Below are positions 1 to 63,834 of a stretch of DNA of 64,000 nt, piece after piece. Location of the stretch: assembly GCF_963921235.1 (NCBI RefSeq), contig NC_086108.1, positions 74,340,001-74,404,000 on the forward strand. The letters are read 5' to 3'. The position numbers were made by a program, and so were the translations under genes. The notes under the pieces were generated by a model that did no database searches, had not been told where the DNA came from, and saw only the letters and a list, made by a program, of their open reading frames with translations. Source of the DNA: Mobula hypostoma (taxonomy: Eukaryota). Position 1 is the stretch's first letter. Each line of letters opens with the position of its first letter.

Positions 1-2533
1 TGTTGTTTAAAACATTCCATCACAGTGGATTAAATTTGGCTTTTTGTTACACTGATCAACAGAAAAAAATCTCTTGTGTCAAAGTGAAAGCAGGTCTTTA
101 CGAAGTGATCTAAATTAATTACAGATATAAAACAAAGTAATTGGTTGCATCAGCATTCACCCCCTTCAAGTCAGTATTTAGTAGATGCACCTTTGACAGC
201 AATTACAGCCTTGAGTCTGTGTGGATTGGTCTCTATCAGCTTTGCACATCTGGACACTGCAATTTATCCCCATTCGTCTTTAAAAACCTGCTCAAGCCCT
301 GTCAGATTGCATGGGGACAGTGAGTGAACAGCCCTTTTCAAGTGCAGCCACAAATTCTCAATTGGATTGAGGTCTGGACTGTGACTTGGCCACACCAGGA
401 CATTATCTTTGTTTTTTTAAGCCATTCCTCTGTGGCTTTGCCTTTATGCTTAGGGTCATTGTCTTATTGCAAAACAGATCTTCTCCCAAGGCACAGTTCT
501 CTTGCAGACTGCATCAGATTTTCCTCCAGTATTTCCCTGTCTTTTGCTGCATTCATTTTGCCCTCTACCTTCACAAGCCTTCCAGGGCCTGCTGCAGTGA
601 GGCATCCCTGCAGCATGATGCAGCCATCACAATGCTTCACAGTATGGATGGTGTGTTTTTGATGATGTGCAGTATTTGGCTTATGCCAAACATAGCATTT
701 CGTCCAATGGCTAAAACTCAATTTTGGTTTCATCAGAATCAGGTTTATTAACATTGGCACGTGTCGTAAAATTTGTTAATTTAGCAGCAGCAGTTTGATG
801 CAATACATAATATAGAAGAAACAAAATAAAATAATAATGAATAAGTAAATCAATTACGGTATATGTATATTGAATAGATTAAAAATCATGCAAAAAACAA
901 ATAATATATATTAAAAAAGTGAGGTAGTGTCCAAAGGTTCAATGTCCATTTAGGAATCGGATGGCAGAGGGGAAGAAGCTGTTCCTGAATCATTGAGTGT
1001 GTGCCTTCAGACTTCTGTACCTTCTACCTGATGGTAACAGTGAGAAAAGGGCATCCCCTGGGTGCTGGGGGTCCTTAATAATGGACGCTGCATTTCTGCG
1101 ACACCACTCCTTGAAGATGTCCTGGATACTTTGTAGGCTAGCACCTAAGATGGAGCCGACTAAATTTACAACCCTCTGCAGCTTCTTTCAGTCTTGTGCA
1201 GTAGTTCCCCCCCCCCCCCCCGCCAATACCACACAGTGATGCAGCCTGTCAGAATGCTCTCCATGGTACATCTATAGAAGTTTTTGAGTGTGTTTGTTGA
1301 CATACCAAATCTCTTCAAAATCCTAATGAAGTATGGCTGCTGTCTTGCCTTCTTTATAACTTCATCGTTATGTTGGGACCAGGTTAGATCCTCAGAGATC
1401 TTGACACCCAGGAACTTGAAGCTGCTCACTCTCTCCACTTCTGATCCCTCTAGGAGGATTGGTATGTGTTCCTTCATCTTGCCCTTCTGGAAGTCCACAA
1501 TCAGCTCTTTCGTCTTACTGATGTTGAGTACCAGGTTGTAGCTGTGACACCACTCCACTGGTTGGCATATCTTGCTCCTGTACACTCTCTCGTCACCACC
1601 TGAGATTCTACCAACAATGGTTGTATCTTCAGCAAATTTATAGATGGTATTTGAGCGATGCCTAGCCAGACAGTCATGGGTATATAGAGAGTAGAGCAGA
1701 CCACAGAACCTTATTTCAGCTGACTTATGACTTTCTCATGTGCATTCTGGCAAACTCCAGCCGAGATTTCGTGAGAGTTTTTTTTCAAAATGGCTTTCTC
1801 TTTGCCATTCTCCCATAAAGCTGTGACTGATGAAGCACCGGGGCAACAGTGTTGTCTTCTATCTCAGCCACTGAAGCTTGTATCTCTTCCAGCGTTGTCA
1901 TAAGTCACTTGGTGGCCTCCATCACTAGTCCTCTTCTTGCACGGTCACTCAGATTCTGAGGACGGATGCTCTAGGCAGATTTACAGCTGTGCCATATTCT
2001 TACTATTCCCAAATGATCAACTTAACCATACTCCAAGGGATATTCAGTGACCTGGAAATTTTCTGTATCCATCTGACTCCTGACTTGTGTTTTTCAATAA
2101 CCTTTTTGCAGAGTGGCTTGGAGTGTTCTTTTGCCTTCATGGTGTGGTTTTTCCCAGGATACTGACTTGCCAGCAGTTGGACCTTCCTCATGCAGGTGTA
2201 TTTTTTACTACAAATCAATTGAAACACTTTGACTGCACACGGGTCTCCAAAAATAGATCTCCATTTAACTAATTATGTGACTTCTAAAACCAATAGGTTG
2301 CACCAGTGATGATTTGTTGTCATATTAAAGGGAGGTGAATGCTTATGCAATTGATTATTTTGTGTTTACATTTATAATTAATTTAGATCACTTTGTAGAG
2401 ATCTGTTTTCACTTTGACACAAAAGAATCCTTTTCTGTTGTCAAAAAGCCAAATTAAGTTCACTGTGAGTCACTGTTGTGAAACAATAAAACATGAAAAC
2501 TTCCAAGGGGGTGAATGCTTTCTATAGGCACTG
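1..2533 (-). mobile_element. Tc1-family DNA transposon with long (about 200 bp) IR/DR-type TIRs, decayed and interrupted by a LINE
   Basis: Transposase remnants on minus (MKAKEHSK..KVIEKHKSG at about 2003-2140; TVKH..GCIML.GC..AAGPGRLVKVEGKMNAAK at 464-730); positions 1-167 are an inverted copy of about 2327-2490; right end CACTG|TA at 2533; left end lies just outside the window. Confidence 0.9.
737..1698 (-). mobile_element. Rex1/Babar-type LINE, 5'-truncated, inserted in the Tc1
   Basis: RT C-terminus LNISKTKELIVDF..FKFLGVKISEDLTWS..FYRCTMESILTGCITVWY; Tc1 sequence resumes at cagaccacagaacc. Confidence 0.85.
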
Positions 2534-3235
2534 TATTTATAGTGAAGGGTCTCGTACAGGAGGTTGGTTAACTTGGTTGGAGCACATGGAACTGAATATG
2601 TACTGACATGGACTGAGAGCTGGTTATTGGTCAGAAAGAAGAGTGTGAATAGTTGACAGCCTGCGACCAGTGCCAATAGGACCCAAGATAATTACTATAT
2701 TTGGTAACAATTTGGCTGAAGGAATAAACTGTTATGCTTCCAAGTTTACTGATGATGCTAAACCAGATGAGGGTGTGAAAATGTAATGAAGATTCAGGGT
2801 TATAGAAATGTTGCATTAGTGGGTGAGAACATCACAAATGCAATATAATGTGGAAAGAGGGTATCTGCTTCATTGCACAATAGGAAAGCAGAATAATTTT
2901 TAAATGATGATTGAGTGGGTAGCATTGAAGTTCAAGGTGACCTGGTTGACCATCATGTAGGATGGCAACTACTATGTTATCTTTTATTACAATTGGACTT
3001 GAATACAGGAATAAGGAAAATTACTGCAATTATACTATAACTGTGAGGCTGTGTGAGACCACACATGAATTTTAGTCAGCAATTTCCAACTCCTTGCCTA
3101 ATGTGTGCCTTCCTGAGAAGGAATGCAGCAAAAATTCATTACAACAGGAATTCTGCAGATGCTGGAAATTCAAGCAACACACATCAAAGTTGCTGGTGAA
3201 CGCAGCAGGCCAGGCAGCATCTGTAGGAAGAGGTG

Positions 3236-3273
3236 CAGTCGACGTTTCAGGCCGAGACCCTTCGTCAGGACTA
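3236..3273 (-). ncRNA. Second identical minimal hammerhead motif in the inverted pLTR
   Basis: Exact reverse complement of 4353-4390. Confidence 0.8.
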
Positions 3274-4352
3274 ACTGAAGGAAGAGTGAGTAAGGGATTT
3301 GAAAGTTGGAGGGGGAGGGGTAGATCCAAAATGATAGGAGAAGACAGGAGGGAGAGGGATAGAGCCAAGAGCTGGATCATGGGACAGGAGGTCCAGGAAG
3401 AAAGACAAGTGGGGGGGGGGACCCAGAGGATGGGCAAGAGGTATATTCAGAGGGACAGAGGGAGAAAAAGAGTGAGAGAAAGAATATCCCACCACTAAGC
3501 ACATCTTTCCCTCCATCCCACCACTAAGCACATCTTTCCCTCCCCCCCTCTCTCTGCATTCCGCAGGGATCGCTCCCTACACAACTCCCTTGTCCATTCG
3601 TCCCCCCCATCCCTCCCCACTGATCTCCCTCCTGGCACTTATCCTTGTAAGCGGAACAAGTGCTACACATGCCCTTACACTTCCTCCCTTACCACCATTA
3701 CCACCATTCAGGGCCCCAAACAGTCCTTCCAGGTGAGGCAACACTTCACCTGTGAGTCGACTGGGGTGATATACTGCGTCTGGTGCTCCCGATGTGGCCT
3801 TTTATATATTGGCGAGACCCGACGCAGACTGGGAGACCACTTTGCTGAACATCTACGCTCTGTCCGCCAGAGAAAGCAGGATCTCCCAGTGGCCACACAT
3901 TTTAATTCCACATCCCATTCCCATTCTGACATGTCCATCCACGGCCTCCTCTACTGTAAAGATGAAGCCACACTCAGGTTGGAGGAACAACACCTTATAT
4001 TCCGTCTGGGTAGCCTCCAACCTGATGGCATGAACATCGACTTTTCTAACTTCCGCTAAGCCCCACCTCCCCCTCGTACCCCATCTGTTACTCATTTTTA
4101 TGCACACATTCTTTCTCTCACTCTCCTTTTTCTCCCTCTGTCCCTCTGAATATACTTCTTTCCCATCTTCTGGGTCCCCCCCCCACTTGTCTTTCTTCCT
4201 GGACCTCCTGTCCCATGATCCTGTCATATCCCCTTTTGCCTATCACCTGTCCAGCTCTTGGCTCTATCCCTCCCCCTCCTGTCTTCTCCTATCATTTTGG
4301 ATCTCCCCCTCCCCCTCCAACTTTCAAATCCCTTACTCACTCTTCCTTCAGT

Positions 4353-4390
4353 TAGTCCTGACGAAGGGTCTCGGCCTGAAACGTCGACTG
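4353..4390 (+). ncRNA. Minimal type I hammerhead ribozyme motif in the Penelope pLTR
   Basis: TAGTC-CTGACGA-A-GGGT-CTCG-GCCT-GAAA-C-GTC-GACTG: core boxes intact, stem I TAGTC/GACTG, palindromic ACGT stem III. Confidence 0.8.
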
Positions 4391-4759
4391 CACCTCTTCC
4401 TACAGATGCTGCCTGGCCTGCTGCGTTCACCAAAAATTCATTACACTGGTTCCAGAGATTGTAGGTTAGCTAAATGATGAGAAATTGAGTAGACTGGGAT
4501 TGATTTGAAGATTAAGAAATCTCACTGACACTCATCAAATTCTTTCAGAGCTTGACAGGCTAGATGAGGGAGGATGTTTCTCATGACTGATGAGAAAGGA
4601 GCTCAGGACTGATGTTTCAGAATAAAGTGTTCAGGATTTGAATGACAGTTCTTCACTAAATAGATGGTGGATCTTTGGAATTCTGTACCCTGGAGAACTG
4701 TGGAGGCTCAATAACTGGGTTTATTCGAAATAGGATGATAGTTTTTTGGGCACTGGGTG

Positions 4760-5500
4760 ATGGAAACCTCCAGTAAAATGACGGTGCTCACACACAGTGA
4801 CTTCTACAGGGATAACCAAAGGTGTTATTGTCCCCTTTTCAAAAGTTACTTTTTTACAATCACGAGATCCTGCTGGACATTAAGAACTTAAAGTTCTGCG
4901 AGTTGCTCATTGGCAGAGAAACGGAAGGAATTGGACTCGGTGTGGATCGTGCTGCTGCCTGCATCAAAGAGGGATTGGAGGAGTCAGTGCATGAAGGTGA
5001 TGTGCAGTCTAACAGCAAGTGATCATCTTGTGGTGGCAAGACCCTGTTGGACATAGCTAACGTAGAATGTTGCAAGTCCTACTCACTGGCGGACTGCAGG
5101 GGAGCTGTGTGCCCTTGGTGATAGCGACAACTGTGCTTCAAGCTGCGGTGTTGCCTGTTCACAGCTATCTAGGAAAGAGGCATTGGTGCGCTCCACCAAG
5201 TGCCAGAGGCAGTGTGGCATGATGTCCAAGCTGGAGTTGGTGCTGCCCACCCCTCCGGTGTTCGTTCAGCAGAAGACAAGCCATATTGTGTTCAACTGCC
5301 TGCTGCTGCAACATTCATGGACTCAGGGACCTGCACTATATTTTTGCTTGTGTGACTGTATTTTACTGCTATCTTATGTGCTAGATGTGCCTTTTGCTGT
5401 TTATGACCATCAGTGCTCTGTTTTGCACCTTGGCCCCAGTAATGCTGTTTAGTTTGGCTGCAGTCATGTATGGTTGAGTGAGAGTTAAGCTTGAACTTGA
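4760..5500 (+). repeat. Unclassified non-coding repeat with a Rex-like 3' tail
   Basis: Ends in (cttgaa)n tail like the Rex fragment tail at about 41215-41252; no coding similarity seen. Confidence 0.4.
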
Positions 5501-5599
5501 AGGGAGGTGGTGCAGGAAAATGGAGATCAGATAGAAGATCATTGAAGGAATAAGTGAGAGAGTGGGATCTGAGCCAATAAGAAGAAGCAAGGTGTAACT

Positions 5600-8500
5600 G
5601 GAGGGGCCATTTTAGCATGGGCCAGGGTTAAGGTGGGAGGCTTTGGCAGAACAGGTTTCAGAGAGAATAGACGGAGGCTAAGGATGCTTCTGAGTCATTT
5701 GGAATAATTTATTTTGATTGTAAAAGTTAGGGCCGAAGGTATAAGAAGTTCAACAGGAAGAGGCTGAGTAAGTGACTCGGGTGAGTTTGAAACTCAAAGG
5801 TTTCAGAAAGAAATCAGGGATAAGTGCAGGTAAGTTTTTTTTTGTTGTCTTTTTTGGTCCTTAATTCAGTGTAGGCAGGGTAGTAGAGAGGTGGTGGAAT
5901 GCCCCTCCTGTTAATATGTGGAATTTCAGGGTACCTAACAACCTCCCTGATGACTGCATCTGTGGGAAGCGCACTCCTGACTGACAAAAACCTCACAGAT
6001 GAAGCTTTTACTGAGGTGGTCACACCAAGAGTGCAGGCTTCAGATAAGTAGATGGGTAGAGTAAATAGTGCAGTGCTCCCTATGCCCGTTTCTCCTCAGC
6101 TACAAGTATAGCCCTTTGGATACTTCTGGGGTTGGGGGGGAGTAAACTATCAGGCCACAGCAGCAGCAAATGGACTTGTGGCACTGTGGCCATGCTTCAG
6201 GGAAGAGGCTCAAGAACCAAAGGAATCCAAGGTAATAATCTTCGGATTACTCTTGATGCTACGTGCTAGTCAGGGCAGAAATAGGATGATAATAGAGATG
6301 AATGAGTGGCTGAGTAATTGGTGCAGGTGGTAAGAGTTTCAGCAGGGAAGGGTAAAGTCAAACAGAACGATAGTGGTAGGAGAATCAATAGTTAGGGGGA
6401 TGGACAGGAGATTCTATGGCTGCGAACGAGAATTCAGGATGATACGTTGCCTTTCTGAGGCATCACCAGTGGAAAGGATGAGCAGTTTCAGCATCCTGGG
6501 TGTCAACATCTCTGAAGGTCTATCCTGGGCCCAACATGTTGATGCAATTACAGTGATGGCATGATAGCAGCTACATTTCATGAGGAGTTTGAGGAGACTT
6601 GGTATGTCACCAAAGACTCTCGTGAATTTCTACGAATGTACTTTGGAGAGGTTGCATCACCAGCTGGTGTGGAGAGGCCCCTGCACAGGATCGGAAAGAG
6701 CTCCAGAAAGTGTAAACTTAGCCAGCTCAGTCATGAGCACTAGCAAAAGGCGATGCCTCAAAAACATGGCGTCCATCATTAAAGATTCCCCCCCCCCCAC
6801 CGCGCCCCACTTCATCCAAGACACACCACCCTATTGCCACAATCAAAGAAGACGTACAGGACCCTGAAGGCACACATTCAACATTTCAAAAGCAGTTTCT
6901 CCCCCTCCACCATATTTCTGCATGGATAAGGAACCGACGTACACTGCCTCACTTTTTTCCTTTTTTATTGTTCTTTCTGCACTACTCATTTAATTGAATA
7001 TTTTAATGTATATTCTTATTGTAGCACAGTTCTTTTACTATTATGTATTGCAATGTACTGCTGCCACAAAACAACAAAATTCATGAGATACAATGTCAGT
7101 GATACTGTATCTGATTCTTATTCTGATTCAGGAGTTAGGGTCCAGGATGTCTCAGATCAGCTAGGGAATATTCTCAAGGGAGAGAGTGAGCAGCTAGAGG
7201 TCATGGGGCTCATTGACTCTAATGACAAAGGTAGAAAGGAGGAAAGAGATCCTGTGGAGTAAGTATGGGGAGTTAGGAGCGGGTCTGACGAGCTATGGTA
7301 ATCCAAGGTAATGATCTTTGGATTACTCCTGGTGCCATGTGCTAGTCAGGGCAGAAATCGGATGATGGTACAGTTGAATGAGTGGCTGAGAAATTGGTGC
7401 AGGGGGTAGAGTTTCAGCCTCTTGGATCATTGGAACCTCTTCTGGGGCAGAGGTAACCTGTACAATAGGGAGGGGTTGCTCCTAAACTGGAGGGGAACTA
7501 AGATCCTGGCTGGGAAGTTTGCTAGTGCTACTAGGGAAGTTTATACTAGTTTGGCAGGGGGATGCAAACCAGATGGTGGAAAAAGTGGAAGGATGAAGAG
7601 GAAGATAGATGTCAGGGACAGTAAAACCAGGCAGGAGCAAAGTAATAGGAATCATGGAATGGATAGTTTGAAGTGTATGAATTTTAATGTTAGGGATATT
7701 ATGGTTTAAGGTGATAAACTTAGAGCATAGATCTACGAAGCTGTGGCCTTATAGAAACTTGTTTGAGAGAGGGACAGGAATGGCTGCTTCAATGTCCCAG
7801 GGTTTTTCGATGTTTTAGAAAAGATAGGGAGGTAAAAGAAATGGGAGAGTTGCACTACTAATCATGGACAATATCACACAGCTGCAGTCATAGGGGACAG
7901 AATGGAGGTCTTGTACACTGAGTCTGTATGGGTAGAATGCAAAAACAGAGTGCAATCACTCTGATGGGATTGTACGACAGACTCCCCCAGCAGCCACCAG
8001 GAGACCGAGGAACACGTGCAAGCAGATGAAGGAAAAGTGTAAAATCAATAGGGTTGTTGTCATGGGGAGCTTCAACTTTCCTAACATAAATTGAGACCTT
8101 CTCAGCACAAGTGGTTTAGAGGGGGCAGAATTTATTAGGTGCATCCAGGAGGGTTTTTTAAGTCAAAATGTAAATAGTCCAACAAGAGGAAGGTTTGTAC
8201 TGAGCCTGGCCAGGTCACTGAAACTTCTGTGGGTGAGCAGGTATGGAACAGTGACCAGAACACAACACCTAAAGTTTTAAGTTAGCTACAGATAAGGATT
8301 AGTATGGTCCTTGTGGGAGAGTATTAAACTGGAGCAGGGCAAATTAGGGGAGCATGAGGCAGGAACAAGGGAGAGTTAATTGGGAACAGCTGATTTTGGG
8401 CAGGTCTCCATCCAACGTGTGGAGGGTGTTTAAAGAGCAACTGCATAGAGTGCAGGACAGGTGAGTTCCAGTCAGAAGGAAGTTCAAGGAAGGCAAAATA

Positions 8501-10270
8501 AGAGAAGCTTGGATGTCAAGAGAGATGATGAATTTTGTCAAGAAAATGGAAAAGGATGTCAAGCTTAGGAAACAAGAATCACCTGAGCCCTTGAGTATCA
8601 TAAGGAAGACTGGAAAGAACTCAGGAATAGAATGAGGAAATCCAGGATGGGCCATGAAAAGTCCTTGGCAAGTGAGATTAAAGAGAATCTCAGGGCATTC
8701 TATTCAAACATCAAGAGCAAGAGGCTAAGTCCACTCAAGGGTAATGGAGAGAACATTTGCTTGGATGTGGAGGATGTGGGTGAGCTTCTTTACATCAGTA
8801 TTTACCAAGGGAAAGGACATGGAGTATAGGGAGATCAGTGCTGAGCATATTCATATACTAGAGCATTTCAAAGTAAAGGAAGAGGTAGTTTTGGGTCTCC
8901 TAAAGAGCATTAAGGTGGATAAATCCCTGGGGCCTCATGGGATATACCACAGGATATTGAGAAAGGCTAGAGAAGAGATTGCTGGGGCTTTGACCAATAT
9001 TTCTGTCCTCTCTAGCCACAGGTGAGGTTCCAAAGGACAGGAAAGTAGCTAATCCAAGAAGGGAATCCTGGAAGCTGTGGACCAGTGAGCCTCACGTCAG
9101 TGGAAGGGATGTTACTGGAGATAATTAAGGATCGGATTATTGAGCATTTGGAAAACCATGGCCTAACTGGGGAGAGCCAGCATGGTCTTGTGCAGTGCAA
9201 ATCATGTTTTACGAATTGAGATTTTTGATAAGGTGACCAGGGTGATTGATGAAAGTAGAGCTGAGGATGTTTACATGGATTTTAGGAAGGCGTTTGACAA
9301 AGTCCTTCATGGGAGGTTCATCCAGAAGATTAAGATGCATGAGATCTATTGAGAATTGGCCATTTGGATTCGGGACTGGCTTGCCCATCAAAGACAGAGT
9401 GTAGTGGTTGAAGAGACCTGTTCTAGGAGGAGATCCATGATTACTGGTGTTCCACAGGGACTTCTGTTGTTTGTGATAAATATAAATGAGCTGGATGAAA
9501 ATGTCGATGGATAGGATAGTAAATTTGCAGATGATATAAAGACTGGTAGATAGCATACAAGATTGACGAAGAATACAGCAGAATTCAGATGAGTTGCAGG
9601 TATAAGTGGAGAAATGACAGATTGAAGTGTTGCACGTTGGGTTGGATGTAAAAAGACAGTACAGTGATAAGGGAAACACCCTTAACAGTGTTGATGAGCT
9701 GAGGGATATTGGGGTGCAAGTTCATAGCTGCCTGAAAGTGGCTACACAGGTTGATTTGGTGGTTAAGAAGGCAGATGGCATACTTGCCTTTATTAGTCAA
9801 GGCAATGAGTTCAAAAGTCGGGAATTTATGTTGCAGCTTTATAAAACTCTAGTTCAGCCGCATCTGGAGTATTGCAAACAGTTCTGGTCACACTACTAAA
9901 GGAAGGTTGTCGAGGCTTTGCAAAGGGTGCAGAAGAGGCTTACCAGGATGCTGCCTGCATTAGATGACGAGAAGTTGGACAAACATGGGTTTGTTTTCTC
10001 CAGAGCAGTGGAGGCTGAGAGGAGATCTGATAAAGTTTTATAAGATTATGAGAGGCAGAGATAGAGTAGACAGACAGTATCTCTTCAACGTACAGGGTTG
10101 GAATGTCTAATACGAGAGGGTATGCACTTAAGGTGAGATGGAGGGTAATTTCAAAGGAGATGTGAGGGGCAAGATTTTTTTTAAACACAGAGTGATGGGT
10201 GCTTGGAATATACTGCCTGGGCTGGTGATAGAGGAAAATACATTAGATACATAGAGACTTTTAAGAGATG
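5600..10270 (+). mobile_element. Near full-length but decayed CR1 LINE (ORF1 with esterase-like domain, ORF2 APE-RT)
   Basis: ORF1 remnants VVGESIVRGMDRRF and DHWNLFWGRGNLYNREGLLLNWRGT; ORF2 remnants LKCMNFNVR, IKVDKSLGPHG, LYKTLVQPHLEYC; 3' end resumes at about 12795-12953. Confidence 0.85.
6460..7128 (+). mobile_element. Rex1/Babar LINE 3' fragment inserted in CR1 ORF1
   Basis: VERMSSFSILGVNISEGLSWAQH, RSLRRLGMSPKTLVNFY; (tctgat)n tail. Confidence 0.8.
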
Positions 10271-10274
10271 TTAG

Positions 10275-12790
10275 ACCATAAGATGTAGGAGCAGAAGTAG
10301 GCCATTCAGCCCATTGAGTATGGCTGATCTAATTCTTCCAGTCATTCTCACTCCCCTGCCTTCTCCCAATACCCCTTGATGCCCTAGCTAATCAAGAACC
10401 TATCTATCTCTGCCTTAAATGCACCCATTGACTTGGCCTCCACAGCCGCACATGGCATCAAATTCCACAGATTTACGACCCTCTGACCAAAGTAATTTCT
10501 CCGCATCTCTGTTCTAGATGGACATCCTTCAATCCTGAAGTCGTGCCCTCTTGTCCTAGACTCCCCTACCATGGGATATAACTTTGAAATATCTAATCTG
10601 TTCAGGCCTTTTAACATTCGGAATGTTTCTGTGAGATCCCCCCCATTCTCTTGAACTCCAGGGAATACAGCCCAACAGCTGCCAAACGTGTCTCATTTGG
10701 TAATCCTTTCATTCCTGGAATCATTCTCGTGAATCTTTTCTGAACCCGCTTCAATGTCAGTAAATCCTTTCTAAAATAAGGAGCCCAAAGCTGCACACAC
10801 TGCTCCAAGTGTGGTCTCACGAGTGCCTTATGGAGCCTCAGCATCACATCCCTGTCTTTATATTCTATACCTCTAGAAATGAATGCCAACATTGCATTCG
10901 CCGCCTTCACCACTGACTGAACCTGGAGGTTAACTTTAGGGTATTCTGCACAAGGACTTCCAAGTCCCTCTGCATGTCTGCATTTTGAATCCTGTCCCCA
11001 TCTAAATAATAGTCTGCCCATTTATTTCTTCCACCATAGTGTATGACCATACACTTTCCAACATTGTATTTCATTTGCCACTTTGCCCATTCCCTAAACT
11101 ATCTAAGTCTCTCTGCAGGCTCTCTGTTTCCTCAACACTACCTGCTCCTCCACCTCTTTGTATCATCGGCAAATTTAGCCACAAATCCATTAATTCCATA
11201 CTCCAAATCATTGATATATCTTGTAAAAAGTAGCAGTCCCAATACCGACCCCTGTGGAACTCCACTGTTAACTGGCATAGAATAGGATACCTTTATTCCC
11301 ACTCGCTGCTTTCTACCGATCAGCCAATGCTCCACCCATGCTAGTAACTTCCCTGTAATTCCATGGGCTCTTGCCTTGCTAAGCAACCTCCTGTTAAAGG
11401 CCTTCTGAAAATCCAAGTACACCACATCCACTGCATCTCCTTTGCCTACCCTGCTTGTAATTTCCTCAAAAAATTGCAGTCGGTTAGTCAGGCAGGATTT
11501 TCCTTTCAGGAAACCATGCTGGCTTTAGCTTATCTTATCATGTGCCTCCAGGTACTCCATAATCTCATTCCTAACTAACGATTCCAACAGCTTTCCAACC
11601 ACTGATGTCAGGCTAACAGGTCTTTTGTTTCCTTTCTGCTGTCTCCCACTCTTCTTAAATAGTGGAGTAACATTTGCGATTTTCCAGTCATCCGGTACAA
11701 TGCCAGAATCTATCAATTCTTAAAGGATCATTGTTAAAGCCTCCACAGTCTCTCCGACTATTTCCTTCAGCACCTGAGGGTGCATTCCATCAGGTCCAGA
11801 AGTTTTATCCACCCTCAGACCAGTAAGCTTCCTGTGCACCTTCTCAGTTGAAATTTTCACTGCACATACTTCACTTTCTTGACACCCTTGAATGCCTGGT
11901 ATACTGCAAATGTCTTCCACTGTGAAGATTGATGCAAAATACGCGTTCAGTTCCTCTTCCATCTCTGTCTCTCATTATAATACCTCCAGCGTCATTTTCT
12001 ATTGGTCGTATTTCTACCCTCAACTCTATTTTACCCTTTATATACTTAAAAAAGCTTTTAGTATCTTCTTTGATATTAATCACCAGCTTCCTTTCATAAT
12101 CCATCTTTTCCTTCCTAATGACTTTCTGAGTTTCCTTCTGCAAGTTTTTAAAAGCTTCCGAATCCTCTATCTTGCCACTAACTTTGGCTTCATTGTATGC
12201 CCTCTCTTTTGCTTTTACTTTGGCTCAGACTTCACTTGTCAGCCATGGTAGTGTCCTTCTTCCATTCAAAAATGTCTTCTTATTTGGAATATATCTGTCT
12301 CACACTTCCCTCATTTTTTGCAGAAACTCCAGCCATTTCTGCTCTGCTGTTCATCCTGCTAGTGTCCCTTTCCATTTAACCTTGGCCAGTTCCCCTCTCA
12401 TGCCATTGTAATTTCCTTTATTCCACTGAAATACTGACACATTGGAATTTAGTTTCTCCTTCTCAGATTTCAAAGTGAACTCGATTATATTGTGATCACT
12501 GTTCCCTAATGGTTCCTTAACCTTGAGCTCTTTTATCACCTCCAGATCATTGCACAACACCCAATCCAGCACAGCCGATCCCCTGGTGGACTCAACAACA
12601 AGCTGTTCTAAAAAGCCATCCCTCAGACATTCTACAAATTCTCTCTCTTGAGGTCCAGTATTGGCTGGTTTTCCCAATCGACTTTCATGTTAAAATCCCC
12701 AACGATTATCATGACATTGCCCTTCTGACATGCCTTTTCTATCTCATGCTGTAATTTGTAATCCATATTGCAGCTGCTGTTTGGAGGCCT
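10275..12790 (-). mobile_element. CR1 LINE ORF2 (APE end plus RT), inserted antisense in the older CR1
   Basis: EFVECLRDGFLEQLV, GPDGMHP, DWKIANVTPLFKK, DVVYLDFQKAF, SGVPQGSVLG, KFADDTK, RPHLE. Confidence 0.92.
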
Positions 12791-13548: not shown

Positions 13549-13611
13549 TTTCACAAACTACAGATGTCAATTGAAGGAAGCTTGCCCACGTATAGATCTT
13601 GGCAAGAGGAG
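13549..13611 (+). CDS. CCDC17: CCDC17 coding exon (first one visible in the window), FHKLQMSIEGSLPTYRSWQEE, phase 0/0
   Basis: Pyrimidine tract ending tcatttAG; donor GAG|GTATGT; 63 nt, open, in phase with the next exon; non-repeat sequence. Confidence 0.7.
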
Positions 13612-19769: not shown

Positions 19770-22550
19770 GACTATAAGATTTAGGAGCAGAAAAAGGCCA
19801 TTTGGCCCATTGAGTCTGCTCCGACATTTCATCATGGGCTGATCCAATTCTTCCAGTCATCCCCACTTCCCTGCCTTTTTCCCATACCCTTTGATGCCCT
19901 GGCTAATCAAGAATCTATCTATCTCTGCCTTAAATGCACCCAATGACTTGGCCTCCACAGCCACACGTGGCAACAAATTCCACAGATTTACCACCCTCTG
20001 ACTAAAGTAATTTCTCCGCATCGCTGTTCTAAATGGATGTCCTTCAATCCTGAATTCATGCCCTCTTGTCCTAGACTCTCCTACCATGGGATATGACTTT
20101 GCCATTTCTAATCTGTTCAGGCTTTTTAACATTCTAGGAGATCCCCCCCTCATTCTCCTGAACTCCAGGGAATACAGCCCAAGAGGTGCCAGATGTTCCT
20201 CATATGGAAACCCTTTCATTCTTGGAATCATTCTTGTGAATCTTCTCTGAACCCTCTCTAATGTCAGTATATCCCTTCTAAAATAAGGAGCCCAAAACTG
20301 CACGCAATACTCCAAGTGTGGTCTCACAAGCACCTTGTATAGCCTCAACATCACATCCCTGCTCGTATATTCTATACCTCTAGAAATGAATGCCAACATT
20401 GCATTTGCCTTTTTCACCACCGACTCAACCTGGAGTTTAACCTTTAGGGTATCCTGCACAAGAACTCCCAAGTCCCTTTGCATCTCTGCATTTTGAATTC
20501 TCTCACCATCTAAATAATAGTCTGCCTGTTTATTTCTTCCACCAAAGTGCATGACCATACACTTTCCAACATTGTATTTCATTTGCCACTTCTTTGCCCA
20601 TTCCCCTAAACTACCTAAGTCTCTCTGCAGGCTCTCTGTTTCCTCAACACTACCTGCTCTTCCACCTATCTTTGTATTATTGGCAAATTTAGATACTAAT
20701 CCATAAATCCAATAGACATAGAAACCATAGAAAAACTACAGCACAGAAACAGGCCCTTTGGCCCTTCTTGGCTGTGCCGAACCATTTTCTGCCTAGTCCC
20801 ACTGACCTGCACACGGACCATATCCCTCCATACACCTCCCATCCATGTATCTGTCCAATTTATTCTTAAATGTTAAAAAAGAACCCGCATTTACCACCTC
20901 ATCTGGCAGCTCATTCCACACTCCCACCAATCTCTGTGTGAAGAAGCCCCCCACTAATGTTCCCTTTAAACTTTTCCCCCCTCACCCTTAACCCATGTCC
21001 TCTGGTTTTTTTCTCCCCTTGCCTCAGTGGAAAAAGCCTGCTTGCATTCACTCTATCTATACCCATCATAATTTTATATACCTCTATCAAATCTCCCCTC
21101 ATTCTTCTACGCTCCAGGGAATAAAGTCCTAACCTATTCAACCTTTCTCTGTAACTGAGTTTCTCAAGTCCCGGCAACATCTTTGTAAACCTTCTCTGCA
21201 CTCTTTCAACCTTATTAATATCCTTCCTGTGATTTGGTGACCAAAACTGAACACAATACTCGAGATTCGGCCTCACCAATGCCTTATACAACCTCATCAT
21301 AACATTCCAGCTCTCATACTCAATACTTTGATTAATAAAGGCCAATGTACCAAAAGCTCTCTTTATGACCCTATCTACCTGTGACGCCACTTTTAGGGAA
21401 TTTTGTATCTGTATTCCCAGATCCCTCTGTTCTACTGCACTGCTCAGTGCCTTAGCATTTACCCTGTTTGTTCTACCTTAGTTTGTCCTTCCAAAGTGCA
21501 ATACCTCACATTTATCTGTATTAAACTCCACCTGCCATTTTTCAGCCCAGTTTTCCAGCTGATCCAAGCCCCTCTGCAAGCTTTGAAAACCTTCCTCACT
21601 GTCCACTACACCTCCAATCTTTGTATCATCAGCAAATTTGCTGATCCAATTTACCACATTATCATCCAGATCATTGATACAGATGACAAATAACAATGGA
21701 CCCAGCACTGATCCCTGTGGCACACCACTAGTCACAGGCTTCCACTCTGAGAAGCAATCCTCTACTACCACTCTTTGGCTTCTTCCATTGAGCCAATGTC
21801 TAATCCAATTTACCACTTCTCCATGTATACCTAGCGACTGAATTTTCCTACTAACCTCCCATGCGGGGCTTGTCAAAGGCTTTACTGAAGTCCATGTAGA
21901 CAACATCCACTGCCTTCCCTTTATCCACTTTCCTGGTATCCACCTCGAAAAACTCCATAGATTGGTCAAACATGACCTACCACGCACAAAGCCATGTTGA
22001 CTCTCCCTCATAAGTCCCTGTCTATCCAAATGCTTGTAGATTCTGTCTCTTAGTACTCCCTCCAATAACTTACCCACTACTGATGTCAAACTTACTGGCC
22101 TATAATTTCCCGGATTACTTTTCGATCCTCTTTTAAACAACGGAACAACATGAGCCATTCTCCAATCCTCTGGCACCTCACTCGTAGACACTGACATTTT
22201 AAATATTTCTGCCAGGGCCCCTGCAATTTCAACACTAGTCTCCTTCAAGGTCCGAGGGAATACCCTGTCAGGTCCTGGGGATTTATCCACTTTAATTTGC
22301 CTCAAGATAGCCAGCACCTCCTCCTTTTCAATCTGTACAGTTTCCATAATCTCACTGCTTGTTTTCCTTAATTCCATAGACTTCATGCCAGTTTCCCTAG
22401 TAAATACAGACACAAAAAACCCATTTAAGATCTCCCCCTAATAGTCTAAATCATTGACATACATTGTAACAAGCAGCAGTCCCAACACTGACCCCTGTGG
22501 AACTCCACTGGTAACCGGCAGCCAACCAGAATAGGATCCCTTTATTCCCT
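19770..22550 (-). mobile_element. CR1 LINE (same subfamily as 10275-12790), interrupted by a younger CR1
   Basis: 241-aa RT C-terminal ORF 19857-20582; remainder at 22440-22550. Confidence 0.88.
20716..22439 (-). mobile_element. Young CR1 LINE, 5'-truncated
   Basis: RT ORFs 21478-22413 and 20911-21390; AATAG duplicated at 20711-20715 and 22440-22444; closely similar to 52070-53417. Confidence 0.92.
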
Positions 22551-24509: not shown

Positions 24510-25600
24510 GCCATAGAGACAACAAACACTACAGCATAGAAATAGGCCCTTTGACCCATCTAGCCTGTGCCAAAACATTAATCTCCCTAGTCCCATAGCA
24601 CTGCACACCCCTCTCATCCATGTACATATCCAAATTTTCATTAAATGTTGCAATCAACCTGCCATTCACCACTTCCAAGCAACACAGACAAAATGCTGGA
24701 GGAACTCGGCAGGCCAGGCAGTATCTATGGGGAAAATGCACAGCTGATGTTTTGGGCTGAGACCCTTCAGCAGGACTTGCACTAGCACTTCATTCCACAC
24801 TTTCATCACCCTCTGAATGAAGGTTTCCCCACCTGTTCCCCTTAAACATTTCACCTTTCACCCTTAACCTATGATCTCCAGTTGTAATCTCACCCAACAT
24901 CAGTGGGAAATGCCTGCTTGTGTTTTTCCTGTCTATACTCCTCATAATTCTGCATATCTCTATCAAATCTCCCCTCAATCTTCTACATTTTCTCAAATAA
25001 AGTCCTAACTTATTCAACCTTTCCCTATAACTCAGATTCTCAAGTTCCTGCAACATCCTCATAAACTTTCTCTGCACTCTTTCAATCTTAATTACATCTT
25101 TCCTGTAGGTTGGTGACCAAAACTGCACACAGTACTCCAAATTAGGCCTCACTGACATCTTATGCAATTTCAACATAACTTCCCAACTCCTGAACTCAGT
25201 ACATTGTTTCATGAAGATCAGTGTGCCAAAAGCTTTCTTTGCAACCGTATCTACCTGTGATACCACTTTGACAGAATTACATAAGACCTACCCTGACTGG
25301 TCCTCCCAAAATGCAATACATCATACTTGTCTGCATTAAATTCCATCTGCCATTTTTTTTTTAGCCCAGTTTTTCCATCTGCTCCAGATCCTGCTGCAAG
25401 TTTTGATAGTCTTTCTCACTATCTACTTCATTCCCGATCTTGGTGTCATCCTCAAATCTGATGATTCAATTTACCACATTATCATGCAGGTATAGATGAC
25501 AAACAGCACTGATCCCTATAGTATACCACAGGCTCCAGCCAGTGAGACAAACTTCTCTTTGGCTTCTTCTGCAAAATCAATGTCGAATCCAATTTACAAA
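24510..25600 (-). mobile_element. CR1 3' fragment containing a short Penelope pLTR-derived piece (about 24680-24777)
   Basis: ORF 24790-25266 VRPNLEYCVQFWSP..LRGDLIE. Confidence 0.85.
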
Positions 25601-38172: not shown

Positions 38173-38352
38173 GACTGGTGAAGAACTTCGGCACAAAACA
38201 TCAACTGTTTACTCTCTTCCATTGATGCTGCCTGACCTGGTGAGTTCCTCCAGCATTTTGTGTGTGTTGCTTATTATCATTGACATGTGTTGTGAAATTT
38301 GTTGTTTTGCAGCAGCAATACATAAAAGCTATAACTTACAATAAGAAATATA

Positions 38353-42313: not shown

Positions 42314-42705
42314 GTAAGAACATTTCTTTCTTGTACCAGTTACAAAACTGATTGTTTTTACAGAAAAAGAATTAAGATTTCACCTTTTAAACTATTTCTG
42401 ATAGGATTAGTTGGTGTGCTTGATATGAAAGGGTCACTATAGTTTAAGTAAATTTATTTAGGAATTGTTTAATGGGACTTGATTAAATATTCAATTTGGA
42501 CTTGTTGAGAATAATCATATAAAAGCTGATTTTCATAAAGCATTTGTCATGAATTCCACATTGTTGCTGATTTGTTATTTCAACTTCATGGTAAAAAACT
42601 ACGTAACTTATAAATATATGTAAAATTGTGTTCATGGTCTTGTGTCGCACAGCTGGCATATACTTTTCTTGAAATATATCTCCTGTAACACAAATCAATT
42701 TAAAT

Positions 42706-42918
42706 TCACACAAAATGCTGGAGGAACTCGGCAGGCCAGGCAACATCTATGGTCAAGAGTACAGTCAATGTTTCAGGCCAAAACCCTTCAGCAGGAGGGT
42801 CTCAGCCTGAAATGTCAACTGTACTCTTTTCCATCGATGCTACCTGGCCTGCTGAGTTCCTTCAGCATTTTGTTTGTGTTGCTTGGATTTCCAGCATCTG
42901 CAGATTTTCTCTTGTTTG
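42706..42918. repeat. Fold-back pair of Penelope pLTR-derived ends
   Basis: About 42706-42790 is an imperfect inverted repeat of about 42795-42880. Confidence 0.75.
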
Positions 42919-43407
42919 TGAATCAATTTAAATTCAGTCTGGAATGATTGGAGGGAAATTATCCTTTTTTGCTTCATGTTTTAAAAAAGTAGAATTAAAG
43001 TATATTAATGTATTGCCAAGATTAATATTATAGCTGTCCTTGTCATTTTTATCCTTTTCCACCATTTGACTAAGCTACGTTAGAGGGCATCCATTCTCTT
43101 ATAGTTTGCATTTTCTTCTCTACGTTTTGGTGAACTTGGCATTTCTCTACTGCAATGGGACATGATATCATATACTGTATATTAAAAAATGACTTTATTA
43201 CTCAAATTAGTAGCAAGTTTTCGGTTAAGGTTCCTGATGCAGTCAGGGGGCACATCAGCAAAGTAATTTGAAAAATAACTGGAAAAATGTTGATACTAGT
43301 ATTGCAGATCCAAACTGAGTCTTTGCATCCTTCAGAATGAGTGTCTCATACTTTGAATTGTCTCAAAACATAATCATCCTGAGATATGCTGATTACCTAT
43401 TTTAAAG

Positions 43408-51457: not shown

Positions 51458-51984
51458 GTAAAAGTGATTCAACAAGTATCTTGTGTGACCAAGATAGTTC
51501 TGTTTATATTGTGCGTGACTTGTCCTAAAATTAAATTGTTGAAATGGAGTATACCTAATATAGAGTTGTGACAGGAGCTGACTAGAATTCAGTTCTGATA
51601 TACCAGTTTAACTTTACAGATTGACATATTTCTTTTCTGTTTACCTTATTTCTAGAAATAGTTTTAAAAAATGAAATTTGCACATGAAGTGCTGGTATTA
51701 GTGCTAGTGAATGAAGTTTTTCAAACCAGATCTAGTTCTTACTTTTACAATTTAAATACAGTTTGAAGTTCCTCCTAAAGAGCCAATAAAGTCTACCATT
51801 AACTCCTGTCAACTTCAGGATTTTTTACCTTCTGATTTACAATGTCCTCCAATCCCCTTGATTTAAATCACAAACAAGCCACATCAGAAATGACAGGGTT
51901 ATTGAGTTATATAAAATTGAGAAGTACAGGAAATGTAGACTCATATCAGAGGTAGATAACATGAGAGAACACAGGTTTGGGGTA

Positions 51985-53645
51985 ACACACATTTAAAAAT
52001 GCTGGTGAGCACAGCAGGCCAGGCAGCATCTATAGGAAGAGGTACAGTCGACATTTCGGGCCAAGACCCATAGAAACCATAGTAACTACAGCACAGAAAC
52101 AGGCCTTTTGGCCCTTCTTGGCTGTGCTGAACCATTTTCTGCCTAGTCCCACTGACCTGCACACGGACCATATCCCTCCATACACCTCCCATCCATGTAT
52201 CTGTCCAATTTATTCTTAAATGTTAAAAAATAACCTGCATTTATCACCTCGTCTGGCAGCTCATTCCATACTCCCACCACTCTCTGTGTGAAGAAGCCCC
52301 CCCTAATGTTCCCTTTAAACTTTTCCCCCCTCACCCTTAACCCATGTTTTTCTCCCCTTGCCTCAGTGGAAAAAGCCTGCTTGCATTCACTCTATCTATA
52401 CCCATCATAATTTTATATACCTCTATCAAATCTCCCCTCATTCTTCTACGGTCCAGGGAATAAAGTCCTAACCTATTCAACCTTTCTCTGTAACTGAGTT
52501 TCTCAAGTCCTGGCAACATCCTTGTAAACCTTCTCTGCACTCTTTCAACCTTATTTATATCCTTCCTGTGATTTGGTGACCAAAACTGAACACAACACTC
52601 TAGATTCGGCCTCACCAATGCCTTATACAACATCATCATAACATTCCAGTTCTTATACTCAATACTTAGATTAATAAAGGCCAATGTACCAAAAGCTCTC
52701 TTTACGACCCTATCTACCTGTGACACCACTTTTAGGGAACTTTGTATTTGTATTCCCAGATCCCTCTGTTCCACTGCACTCCTCAGTGCCTTACCATTAA
52801 CCCTGTATGTTCTACCTTGGTTTGTCCTTGCAACGCGCAATACCTCACACTTGTCTGTATTAAACGCCATCTGCCATTTTTCAGCCCATTTTTCCAGCTG
52901 GTCCAAGTCCCTCTGCAGGCTCTGAAAATCTTCCTCACTGTCTACTACACCTCCAATCTTTGTATCATCAGCAAATTTGCTGATCCAATTTACCACATTA
53001 TCATCCAGATCATTAATATAGATGACAAATAACAATGGACCCAGCACTGATCCCTGTGGCACACCACTAGTCACAGGCCTCCACTCAGAGAAGCAATTCT
53101 CTACTACCACTCTTTGGCTTCTTCCATTGAGCCAATTTCTAATCCAATTTACCACCTCTCCGTGTATACCTAGTGACTGAATTTGCCTAACTAACCTCCC
53201 ATGCAGGACCTTGTCAAAGGCCTTACTGAAGTCCATGTCGACAATATCCACTGCCTTCCCTTCATCCACTTTCCTGGTAACCTCCTCGAAAAACTCCAAT
53301 AGATTGGTCAAACATGACCTACCACGCACAAAGCCATGTTGACTCTCCCTAATAAGTCCCTGTCTATCCAAATGCTTATAGATTCTGTCTCTTAGTACTC
53401 CCTCCAATAACTTACCTAATACCCTTCATCAGGACTAACTGAAAGAAGAGATAGAAAGAGATTTGAGAGGAGGAGGGAGAGATCTGAAATGATAGCAGAA
53501 GACAGGAGGGAGAGGGATGGAGCTAAGAGCTGGAAAGCTGATTGGCAAAAGGGATACGAGGCTGGAGAAAGGAGAGGATCATGGGACGGGAGGCCTAGGG
53601 AGAAAGAAAGGAGGAGGGGAGCCCAGGGGATGGGCAAGGAGTTAT
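51985..53645 (-). mobile_element. Penelope pLTR fragment split by a CR1
   Basis: 51985-52069 and 53421-53645 are colinear with the inverted pLTR at about 3175-3440. Confidence 0.8.
52070..53417 (-). mobile_element. Young CR1 LINE, 5'-truncated, RT ORF 356 aa
   Basis: QHGFVRGRSCLTNL, DFSKAFDKV, SGVPQGSVLGPLLF, KFADDTK; catagaaaccatag tail. Confidence 0.93.
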
Positions 53646-53887
53646 TCTCCCTCTGTCCCTCTCACTATAACTCCTTGCCCAACCTCACCACGCTCACACT
53701 CTTTGTAGCAATACATTCTTGTCACTTTTTCAGTTCTGTTTAAGAGTGCTTGATCAAAAACATCAAATTCCTATTGCTCCATCAGCACTGATGCTGCCTG
53801 AGCTGCCCAGAGTTCCATCATCTTCTGTGTTTTGGAAAAGATCATAAGTCCTTTATCTTTTTATGCTTTCTTTGTTTATGTTAACAG

Positions 53888-62190: not shown

Positions 62191-63834
62191 AATTTATCCT
62201 AAACTTAGAAATTATTATATTCATTTCATTAATCAAATCTCAACCTACATCCATATATTACTCCTTGTCCCCAACCTCTAATTGTTAAATTTTACATCAG
62301 ACTGCAAAAAAGAGCTTGCAACCCTGTCAAGACATTTACTCTAGTCACTCATTTGATATCTCCTCTCCCAAATCTTTGATACTGACTAGCAGAAAGGACA
62401 AGGCAGTGGGTATGTTGGCAGTTGTTGGTTGTTCTCCATCTTCATTCTGGTTTTGAAATTTATTGTTATTTCTTTGTTGCTGAGAGTAATTCCTAGAGCT
62501 GCTTACGCAAAAGTACAAAAGAACCTTCAGCAGAGGGTCTGCTGTAGTTCAGGAACGTCTCTGACTGAAGTGTCTCCTGTAGTCTTTTCCATAGATGCTG
62601 CCTGGCCTGCTGAGTTTCTCCAGCATTTTGTGTGCGTTGCTTGGATTTCCAGCATCTGCAGATTTTCTCTTGTTTGTCATTGGCAATTTATTTACATAAA
62701 TAAATATTCAACTGAAAATATTATTTAAACACAATTCATCCTATTTTTGGAAGGCAAATCCAACACACACTTTCAGATTCCATCTTAACAGCAAATTCAT
62801 GGATGAATTCCCAAGTGGATTTAGAAATTCTCTAATGCGGCTCTTTGACATGATGATGTAACACATGACCGGGCAGAAGATCTGACATCACAGCAAAGTT
62901 GCAGAGATTTTCTTGATTCTCATGAAGGGGTTGAGGGTTCTATTTTATTTTAACCTTATGGCAATTAAATTGCTCTTGCATTTACTATACACCATTGTGC
63001 GGCAGTGCGTTTATCAGCAGGAATCCTCCATGTCAGATTGCAAGTCAGCACCAACATCGAGAGGAAGAATTACTCAAAAGCCAATTAATTGGCAGCCTTT
63101 CCAATGACTTAAGGGAGAGAAGGGAATGGAGTGAAAAGAATCCCAGGTACAAACATGAAATGGAATCTACAGGCAAGTGAGAGAGTTGTCCAAAGCCCAA
63201 CTTCCCTTTTTACAGCTATCGAGCTGTGTCAAGAGGAATCCCCTTTACCAGGACTTCAGTCTAAGTCCCCTTAACTTCCCAAGAAGAATTCCTTGGGTAT
63301 GGGAGGTAAACAGTTGTATTATCATCATTAGGGATAAATGACTCCAGTGAGAAGATGATGGTACACATCATAATGGTTTGATCTTAATGCTGGACAATTT
63401 TTCAGAATAGCTCCAAAACACTATTGAATGTAAGTAGCAAAGGCCATAAAAGTCCAAATATCTGTTTTGTTTTCTGCATTACTTAAAATGATAAATATAA
63501 ATACAGGCAAGAGGTTAGTTAAACTTTGATTGAAAGACCTTGATCTTGTGCAGTATTGCATTCTTGACTTTAGGAAAGTTATTGGGTCTGTTCACATTGA
63601 AGTAAAGATTTAGTGAATTAATAGGACGCAGGTATAAGGTATGGGAACAACTTGTAAACAGGCTTTTTGAATGGAACGAGAAATAATGCAGCATCTTAGA
63701 GAGCAGACTGCAGCTGAATAGTCAGAGCAGTAAGACAGGGCATCATTTGGCTAGTAGTTATATGCTCTACAAAGTAACCCAAAGTTAAAACTCCCAATAG
63801 TTTCAGAAAACTAAAAAAATTGCTAATTTGTATA

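What the first reader, a model, noticed from the sequence alone, without database searches (positions are those of the whole stretch)
4353..4390. Intact minimal hammerhead ribozymes in both pLTRs of a young Penelope insertion
Seen: CUGACGA and GAAA boxes, stem I UAGUC/GACUG, stem II GGGU-CUCG-GCCU after one extra A, and a loopless palindromic stem III (ACGU). Predicted cleavage is after GUC at 4385. An exact antisense copy sits at 3236-3273. Known: Penelope-like elements carry minimal type I hammerheads thought to cleave as dimers through a palindromic stem III, and an extra A between A9 and G10.1 occurs in some natural hammerheads. Inference: if this region is a CCDC17 intron, the sense copy is transcribed in the pre-mRNA and could be masked by pairing with the antisense copy.
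Basis: partly seen in the sequence, partly recalled or inferred. Interest (0 to 1): 0.72.

Follow-up and report, generated by a model that had tools for sequence, protein, structure and literature searches.

The report
Ordinary Penelope-type hammerhead, recent ray insertion
The motif is the already described minimal hammerhead self-cutting RNA motif of Penelope-like jumping genes, present twice in opposite orientation in one recent, truncated insertion that likely lies in a CCDC17 intron of a ray, where it is predicted to be paired up and inactive.

Summary
Observation confirmed. The 38-nt motif at 4353-4390 and its exact antisense copy at 3236-3273 are the only two descriptor matches in the window (0 of 500 shuffles give two). 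They sit in a 1,287-nt, 5'-truncated, Neptune/Nematis-type Penelope-like insertion with an inverted arm, a one-sided tail of about 50 nt and a 15-nt target duplication. Two related species carry the empty site, so the insertion is recent. The extra A, palindromic stem III and opposite-strand pairs are all in Cervera & De la Pena 2014. Corrections: stem II closes G10.1·U11.1, probably CpG decay, in both arms. The two motifs are antisense, so they cannot be each other's dimer partner. The intron placement is inferred. Folding predicts the motif is buried by the inverted arm and by a local upstream hairpin. Cleavage was not tested, and covariation could not be tested. This scan has already noted this family many times on other DNA of this genome (81 notes fit the look-up). 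One side lead: an acceptor-like CAG just before helix I carries the strand that locks the core, so splicing might gate the ribozyme. This is weak and untested.

The parts
3129..3143 (+). Left copy of the 15-nt AT-rich target-site duplication; its last 3 nt could also be read as tail
   Evidence: Exact repeat with 4431-4445; contigs of organisms B and C join 3128 to 4431
3144..3193 (-). Tail of about 50 nt, present only at this end of the insertion
   Evidence: The right arm stops at 4432, which pairs with 3194; one-sided tails of 30-40 bp are a PLE hallmark
3194..3485 (-). Inverted, 5'-truncated copy of the element's 3' end (left arm)
   Evidence: Matches 4108-4432 with 5 substitutions in 291 aligned nt and three indels (3, 1 and 31 nt)
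3236..3273 (-). Antisense copy of the minimal hammerhead
   Evidence: Identical to 4353-4390
3486..3543 (+). 29-nt tandem duplication at the 5' truncation point of the sense copy
   Evidence: family D5, 100% identical
3515..4059 (+). C-terminal fragment of the PLE ORF: CX4CXXC linker (3646-3672), VIY-Cys-Cys-YIG GIY-YIG endonuclease (from 3766), stop at 4057-4059; no RT
   Evidence: Pfam GIY-YIG E 0.0021, 18.7 bits, below the 22.6 cut-off; 93% identical to a Mobula protein; relative P0012 carries GIY-YIG above cut-off and RVT_1 below cut-off
4060..4430 (+). Pyrimidine-rich 3' UTR / pLTR of the sense copy; 4431-4432 are shared with the target duplication
4339..4369 (+). Predicted alternative hairpin that pairs the upstream UCAG with the CUGA box; includes an acceptor-like pyrimidine tract ending in CAG at 4349-4351
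   Evidence: MFE fold; pair probabilities 0.77-0.91 in three contexts; 18 of 20 pyrimidines; composition control
4353..4390 (+). Minimal type I hammerhead motif, predicted cut after C4385, helix II closed by G·U
4431..4445 (+). Right copy of the target-site duplication
13549..13611 (+). First CCDC17 coding exon found in the window (residues 101-121 of P0002); the insertion lies about 9 kb upstream, in the inferred preceding intron
   Evidence: tblastn

Best explanation
The motif is the standard minimal hammerhead of a Penelope-like retroelement (Neptune/Nematis-type by its linker), copied twice in opposite orientation into one recent, 5'-truncated insertion, and it is likely a passenger that does not cut the CCDC17 pre-mRNA it probably sits in. 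Shown: motif, inverted arm, one-sided tail, 15-nt target duplication, empty site in two relatives, endonuclease fragment without RT. Inferred: the element's protein nicked an AT-rich site and began reverse transcription at two internal points about 50 nt apart in the tail hairpin, as shown in vitro for the anole element, which gave a long left end and a short right end. Predicted: in host RNA the antisense arm is transcribed first and pairs with every base of the sense motif. Without that arm a local hairpin still buries the CUGA box. No second sense-strand intact motif is in the window for dimer cleavage, and helix II is weakened by G10.1·U11.1. In the parent element the motif most likely acts as a slow, dimer- or protein-dependent ribozyme that is not needed for insertion.
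For: Descriptor and shuffles. TSD and arms. Empty sites: X5 record 17 joins 2615-3128 to 4431-4890, X9 record 24 joins 2600-3128 to 4431-4694, while X1 records 1 and 6 cross both junctions with 0 differences. Endonuclease motifs. Whole-insertion fold pairs 38 of 38 motif bases with the antisense arm at p>=0.997; helices I and II fall from mostly 0.87-0.98 (isolated 38-mer; outer helix I pair 0.55) to <=0.01 with native flanks. Helix II -2.0 kcal/mol against -3.7 for the C11.1 relative at 52058-52069. Literature: a min-HHR monomer was inactive and dimers weak (PMC4209133); the anole PLE ribozyme cleaves only with the PLE protein, its mutants still insert, and no RNA-seq reads start or end at the cut site (PMC11167929).
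Against: No cleavage data exist for this family. Nearest-neighbour folding ignores tertiary contacts, proteins and kinetics, and it also disfavours the double-hammerhead fold itself (-11.5 against a dimer MFE of -30.3 kcal/mol), so it cannot separate live from dead min-HHRs well. G10.1·U11.1 is not disqualifying: 8 of 56 rows of Cervera Fig. S3 have it (counted by eye), though all with 6-7 bp helix II. The motif's family is extremely abundant (296,200 contig records of X1 were laid on the stretch), so dimer partners in trans could exist.
Confidence: 0.85

Rival explanations
1. The sense copy is active in vivo, cleaving the CCDC17 pre-mRNA as a dimer in trans with other transcripts of this abundant family or with help from the PLE protein.
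For: Core boxes, GUC and the ACGU palindrome are intact; it is sense to CCDC17; the family is very abundant; the anole ribozyme is protein-assisted.
Against: Predicted duplex of about 290 bp with the arm transcribed earlier; local locking hairpin; weak helix II; low in vitro rates for min-HHR dimers. A cut inside an intron would in many cases not stop splicing (own knowledge).
Confidence: 0.05
2. In the parent element the ribozyme is gated by splicing or by the transcript's 5' end. The CAG at 4349-4351 is a 3' splice site (or initiator), and removing the upstream strand releases helices I and II. The same edge sets the 5' ends of the tiny copies. This insertion is an unspliced, locked copy.
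For: In D. virilis Penelope the intron ends at the 5' end of helix I. The tract has 18 of 20 pyrimidines, more than any of the CCDC17 acceptors scored (7-17), and 5 of 1,952 + strand YAG sites reach this. The upstream strand pairs the CUGA box at p 0.77-0.91. 8 of the 15 joints shown have an arm starting at positions equivalent to 4341-4368 and none at 4386 (mapping). The 42.7-kb pair's left arm starts at the position equivalent to 4356, just after the second AG.
Against: The UTR is 79% pyrimidine and 51 of 273 20-nt windows reach 18 of 20, so the acceptor score is largely compositional. No donor was located; no joint from a donor to 4352 or 4356 is among the 15 shown (3,074 hidden). An upstream UCAG with a foldable loop occurs in only 5 of 56 Fig. 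S3 rows (by eye), two of them probably related. RT stalling at a hairpin would explain the breakpoints equally well.
Confidence: 0.12
3. The motif no longer works even in the source element: the family spreads with decaying hammerheads, and the U11.1 variant was mobilised because cleavage is irrelevant to insertion.
For: Both arms share U11.1, so it predates the insertion (or was homogenised). Six other in-window copies that cover the column read CG (1), CA (2) and TG (3) at 11.1-12, a CpG-decay pattern. Ribozyme mutants insert normally in vitro; Naiads thrive without canonical HHRs.
Against: The family-wide frequency of U11.1 is unknown (no row among 40 shown, 186 hidden). G·U closure is natural in 8 of 56 published rows. 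The core boxes are intact in this young copy.
Confidence: 0.25

Closest known systems
Minimal type I hammerheads (min-HHR) of metazoan Penelope-like elements (Cervera & De la Pena 2014, PMC4209133; main text parts 1-2 of 4 and all 3 parts of the supplementary PDF read)
   Same: CUGANGA plus one extra nt, GAAANNUH, palindromic 15.2-16.2, no loop 3, helix I of 4-5 bp, location in the pLTR, and opposite-strand pairs in truncated elements (there about 100-700 bp apart; Cotesia bracovirus example).
   Different: No cartilaginous fish among the 56 rows or Table S1. Helix II is 4 bp with two G·U pairs, including 10.1·11.1. The pair here is about 1.1 kb apart.
Canonical EN+ PLE insertion architecture, Neptune/Nematis clades (Craig et al. 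2021, PMC8557442; passages read)
   Same: [quoted passage not shown]
   Different: Tail about 50 nt rather than 30-40. The target is AT-rich but not a (TA)n microsatellite. No RT here, so no tree-based clade call.
PAc, Poseidon of Anolis carolinensis (Frangieh et al. 2024, PMC11167929; parts 1-2 of 4 read)
   Same: Hammerhead upstream of a tail hairpin, two element ends, AT-rich target.
   Different: Different clade; internal RT starts and protein-assisted cleavage are shown there and only inferred here.
Drosophila virilis Penelope pLTR with intron ending at helix I (PMC4209133 main text; Schostak et al. 2008, PMC2377424, passages)
   Same: An acceptor-like YAG lies immediately 5' of helix I.
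   Different: No donor, transcription start or spliced RNA identified here.

Membership tests
PLE min-HHR | CUGANGA(+N) and GAAANNUH core boxes with helices I and II of at least 3 bp | tested here: met
   published descriptor
PLE min-HHR | Extra nucleotide between 9 and 10.1 | tested here: met
   A4365
PLE min-HHR | Palindromic positions 15.2-16.2 | tested here: met
   ACGU 4381-4384
PLE min-HHR | G10.1-C11.1 pair (highly conserved, not universal) | tested here: not met
   G·U in both arms; C in 3 of 6 other in-window copies; G·U in 8 of 56 published rows (by eye), so this does not exclude membership
PLE min-HHR | Located in the pLTR of a PLE | tested here: met
   293 nt downstream of the GIY-YIG stop codon
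PLE min-HHR | Compensatory changes in helices across the family | tested here: inconclusive
   No genome held; window copies are decayed; variant table cut; 0 of 97 metagenome loci belong to the family
PLE min-HHR | Self-cleavage as a dimer or with protein help | not testable with these tools
   Needs an in vitro assay
Rfam hammerhead families | Covariance-model match | tested here: not met
   No hammerhead hit at E<=1 in 1-12000; expected for a motif without loop 3 (inference)
EN+ Penelope-like element | [quoted passage not shown] | tested here: met
   Pfam hit below cut-off here, above cut-off in relative P0012
EN+ Penelope-like element | RT domain upstream in the same ORF | tested here: inconclusive
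   Absent here through truncation; P0012 has RVT_1 at E 9.3e-05, below cut-off
EN+ Penelope-like element | Inverted 5'-truncated partner and one-sided tail | tested here: met
Neptune/Nematis clades | CX2-5CxxC linker upstream of the endonuclease | tested here: met
   CX4CXXC at 3646-3672
Neptune/Nematis clades | Placement in an RT phylogeny | not tested
   No reference PLE set available in session
Penelope/Poseidon clade | Absence of the CX2-5CxxC linker | tested here: not met
   The linker is present
Non-LTR retrozyme | Tandem head-to-tail non-coding units, each with a hammerhead | tested here: not met
   Inverted pair around a coding fragment; definition

The most novel reading that the evidence does not exclude
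The ray Neptune-type hammerhead is splice-gated. A 3' splice site (or initiator) sits 1 nt before helix I, as the intron end does in D. virilis Penelope, and the strand it removes is the one that locks the catalytic CUGA box. Unspliced RNA, the form copied into this insertion, would be protected from cleavage, processed RNA would be cleavage-competent, and the same edge would explain why tiny copies start at the ribozyme's outer border and not at its cut site.
Probability: 0.12. Interest if true: 0.6.

Novelty: new member of a known kind. Interest (0 to 1): 0.13.

Why it matters
As it stands it matters little: it is one more copy of a described motif in a very abundant family. Its modest value is as a dated, clean insertion with an empty orthologous site, which shows target duplication, tail and inversion at base resolution, and shows that a template with a G10.1·U11.1 ribozyme was copied recently. 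If the splice-gating lead held, it would offer a mechanism for the open question of what PLE hammerheads do and why PLEs keep introns.

Tried and rejected
No whole genome is held, so there are no copy counts or covariation of my own. Metagenome scan with a tail motif: 97 loci, 0 of 97 family members, best matches cover little more than the motif. Protein searches with the read-through of the hammerhead region, meant to read the 11.1 state from gene models: 0 of 7 candidates passed, and 4 hits matched only the low-complexity start of the query, ending before the hammerhead core. Mapping 13 endonuclease-bearing gene models on the element gave no use of the 4352 or 4356 acceptor. Run search: no RNA holder listed; the guessed RNA run X11 has little or no cover on the unique flanks, which is no evidence either way on transcription. 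Lünse et al. 2016 (PMC5785218) is not held; I saw only its citation and a review's passage on it (PMC6765202). Three paper searches for this motif in sharks or rays, or for PLE acceptor plus hammerhead, gave no paper describing this family in their listings. The 2026 preprint 10.64898/2026.07.22.740005 (part 1 of 5 and passages) reports hammerhead retrozymes in one chondrichthyan; its supplements were not seen and may list this family. Rejected: cis-dimer between the two copies (opposite strands); chance motif; retrozyme (no tandem); arms from different templates (5 differences against 3.3 expected from the A-B flank divergence, P=0.23, so not needed). The FsrA hit (E 0.26) is noise.

Full report
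1. Observation. The window shows the motif as described: helix I at 4353-4357/4386-4390, CUGACGA at 4358-4364, an extra A at 4365, helix II at 4366-4369/4374-4377, GAAA at 4378-4381, palindromic ACGU at 4381-4384 and C17 at 4385. The reverse complement of 3236-3273 is identical. A descriptor modelled on the published min-HHR descriptor finds exactly these 2 sites in 64 kb; 500 dinucleotide shuffles gave a mean of 0.01, 5 with one hit and none with two. Rfam has no hammerhead hit in 1-12000.

2. The insertion. A 15-nt exact repeat flanks it at 3129-3143 and 4431-4445. Laying contigs of four public runs settles the borders. One contig of organism B and one of organism C each join 3128 directly to 4431, that is, the empty site with one copy of the repeat. 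Two contigs of organism A cross the left and right junctions with no differences. That run may be the source of the assembly, so it is not independent support. The B contig differs from the window at 11 letters and 3 gaps in 977 nt, so the insertion postdates a recent split (inference; precise loss in two species is unlikely). Inside, from left to right: a tail of about 50 nt (3144-3193, - strand), an inverted 5'-truncated arm (3194-3485), a 29-nt tandem duplication, and the sense copy to 4432. The arms differ by 5 substitutions in 291 nt and three indels, compatible with the flank-based age (3.3 expected, P=0.23). The sense copy holds only the end of the ORF: a CX4CXXC linker and a GIY-YIG domain with two cysteines between VIY and YIG. 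Pfam scores it below cut-off; a longer relative passes. By the definitions in PMC8557442 (passages) the linker marks Neptune/Nematis, not Penelope/Poseidon. The closest proteins are from rays.

3. Host context. Five chondrichthyan CCDC17 proteins map to 9-12 exon-like matches each on the + strand from 13549 to about 57070. Residues 1-100 of the full-length homolog P0002 have no match in the window, so the upstream exons probably lie before position 1 and the insertion is in an intron, with the 4353 copy in sense. This is inferred, not shown.

4. Would it cut? The two copies are antisense to each other, so neither strand's transcript carries two ribozymes, and no other intact motif is in the window. 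Folding the whole insertion pairs 38 of 38 motif bases with the left arm at p>=0.997. That arm is transcribed first, so capture during transcription is plausible (inference). Without it, native flanks drop helices I and II from mostly 0.87-0.98 to 0.01 or less, because 4339-4351 pairs with the CUGA box and the 5' strand of helix II. Helix II is worth -2.0 kcal/mol against -3.7 for a natural C11.1 relative in the window. Against over-reading: the same model scores the double-hammerhead fold at -11.5 against a dimer MFE of -30.3, so it disfavours the active form regardless; and G10.1·U11.1 occurs in 8 of 56 published min-HHRs (by eye), including the S. mansoni Sm1 row, though with longer helix II. 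Six other in-window copies that cover positions 11.1-12 read CG once, CA twice and TG three times, which points to an ancestral CpG. Because both arms share the U, it predates the insertion or was homogenised. Its family-wide frequency could not be read: the variant table shows 40 rows, hides 186, and has none inside the motif.

5. Comparison with what is known. They found no monomer cleavage and low dimer cleavage for the S. mansoni motif tested. The extra A in a viroid hammerhead is in PMC3705267 (passage). Craig et al. describe the inverted arm and the one-sided tail (passages). Frangieh et al. 2024 (PMC11167929, parts 1-2 of 4) show two internal RT starts that make the tail, AT-rich targets, protein-assisted ribozyme cleavage that is dispensable for insertion, and no RNA-seq ends at the cut site. 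No cartilaginous fish is among Cervera's 56 rows; a 2026 preprint reports hammerhead retrozymes in one chondrichthyan. This scan's own notes (AI-written, unchecked) already describe the family many times in this genome.

6. One side lead. A pyrimidine tract ending in CAG lies 1 nt before helix I, with a second AG at 4354-4355. It has 18 of 20 pyrimidines, more than the CCDC17 acceptors scored, and 5 of 1,952 + strand YAG sites reach this; but 51 of 273 windows of this UTR do too. In D. virilis Penelope the intron ends at the 5' end of helix I (intron details in PMC2377424, passages). The strand such a splice would remove is the predicted lock on the core. Of the 15 best-supported joints shown for the family (3,074 hidden), 8 have an arm starting at positions equivalent to 4341-4368 and none at the cut site. 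The 3271-to-4356 joint occurs in all three non-RNA runs, and the 42.7-kb inverted pair in the window also starts one arm at the 4356 equivalent. No donor or spliced form was found, the joints have short sides (18-32 letters), and RT stalling at a hairpin is an equal explanation. I give splice or start-site gating 0.12. One paper search for it listed a single review, which I did not read.

7. Verdict. It is a young, non-autonomous insertion whose ribozyme motif is predicted to be silent. Interest 0.13; new member of a known kind.

Noticed in passing
window 51984-53690: An older copy of the same element (- strand) is split inside helix II of its hammerhead by an insert of about 1.36 kb (52061-53422) that is 94% identical to 20709-22080, with a short GGGT duplication at the break; its 3' half keeps C11.1.
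   Followed up: partly
window 42692-42936: Tiny head-to-head pair of decayed hammerhead ends with a 16-nt AT-rich target duplication and a tail on one side only; the arms start at positions equivalent to about 4356 and 4366.
   Followed up: partly
window 24676-24777, 38175-38272, 62557-62673: Three more decayed short copies of a related subfamily, apparently beginning near the 5' edge of the hammerhead.
   Followed up: partly
window 3486-3543: Perfect 29-nt tandem duplication exactly at the inversion junction, suggesting a restart of reverse transcription.
   Followed up: no
window 3567-3955 and 4352-4460: Sense-strand cryptic splice signals within the insertion (donor-like sites at 3733 and 3752; acceptor-like at 4352 with a donor-like site at 4461 in the flank). 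Several ray gene models in public databases (named DIPK1C X2, mucin-2 X2, CHID1 X1, ULK1 X2, NMUR1) contain pieces of this endonuclease, either exonisation or annotation error.
   Followed up: partly
window 3839: This copy has A where most laid contigs read G (86% of depth in X1); this puts His in the RxxEH-type motif where the database relatives have Arg.
   Followed up: no
window 3194-3485 with 4108-4432: A duplex of about 290 bp is predicted in the host pre-mRNA; it would be a candidate ADAR substrate (own knowledge), not testable with contigs.
   Followed up: no
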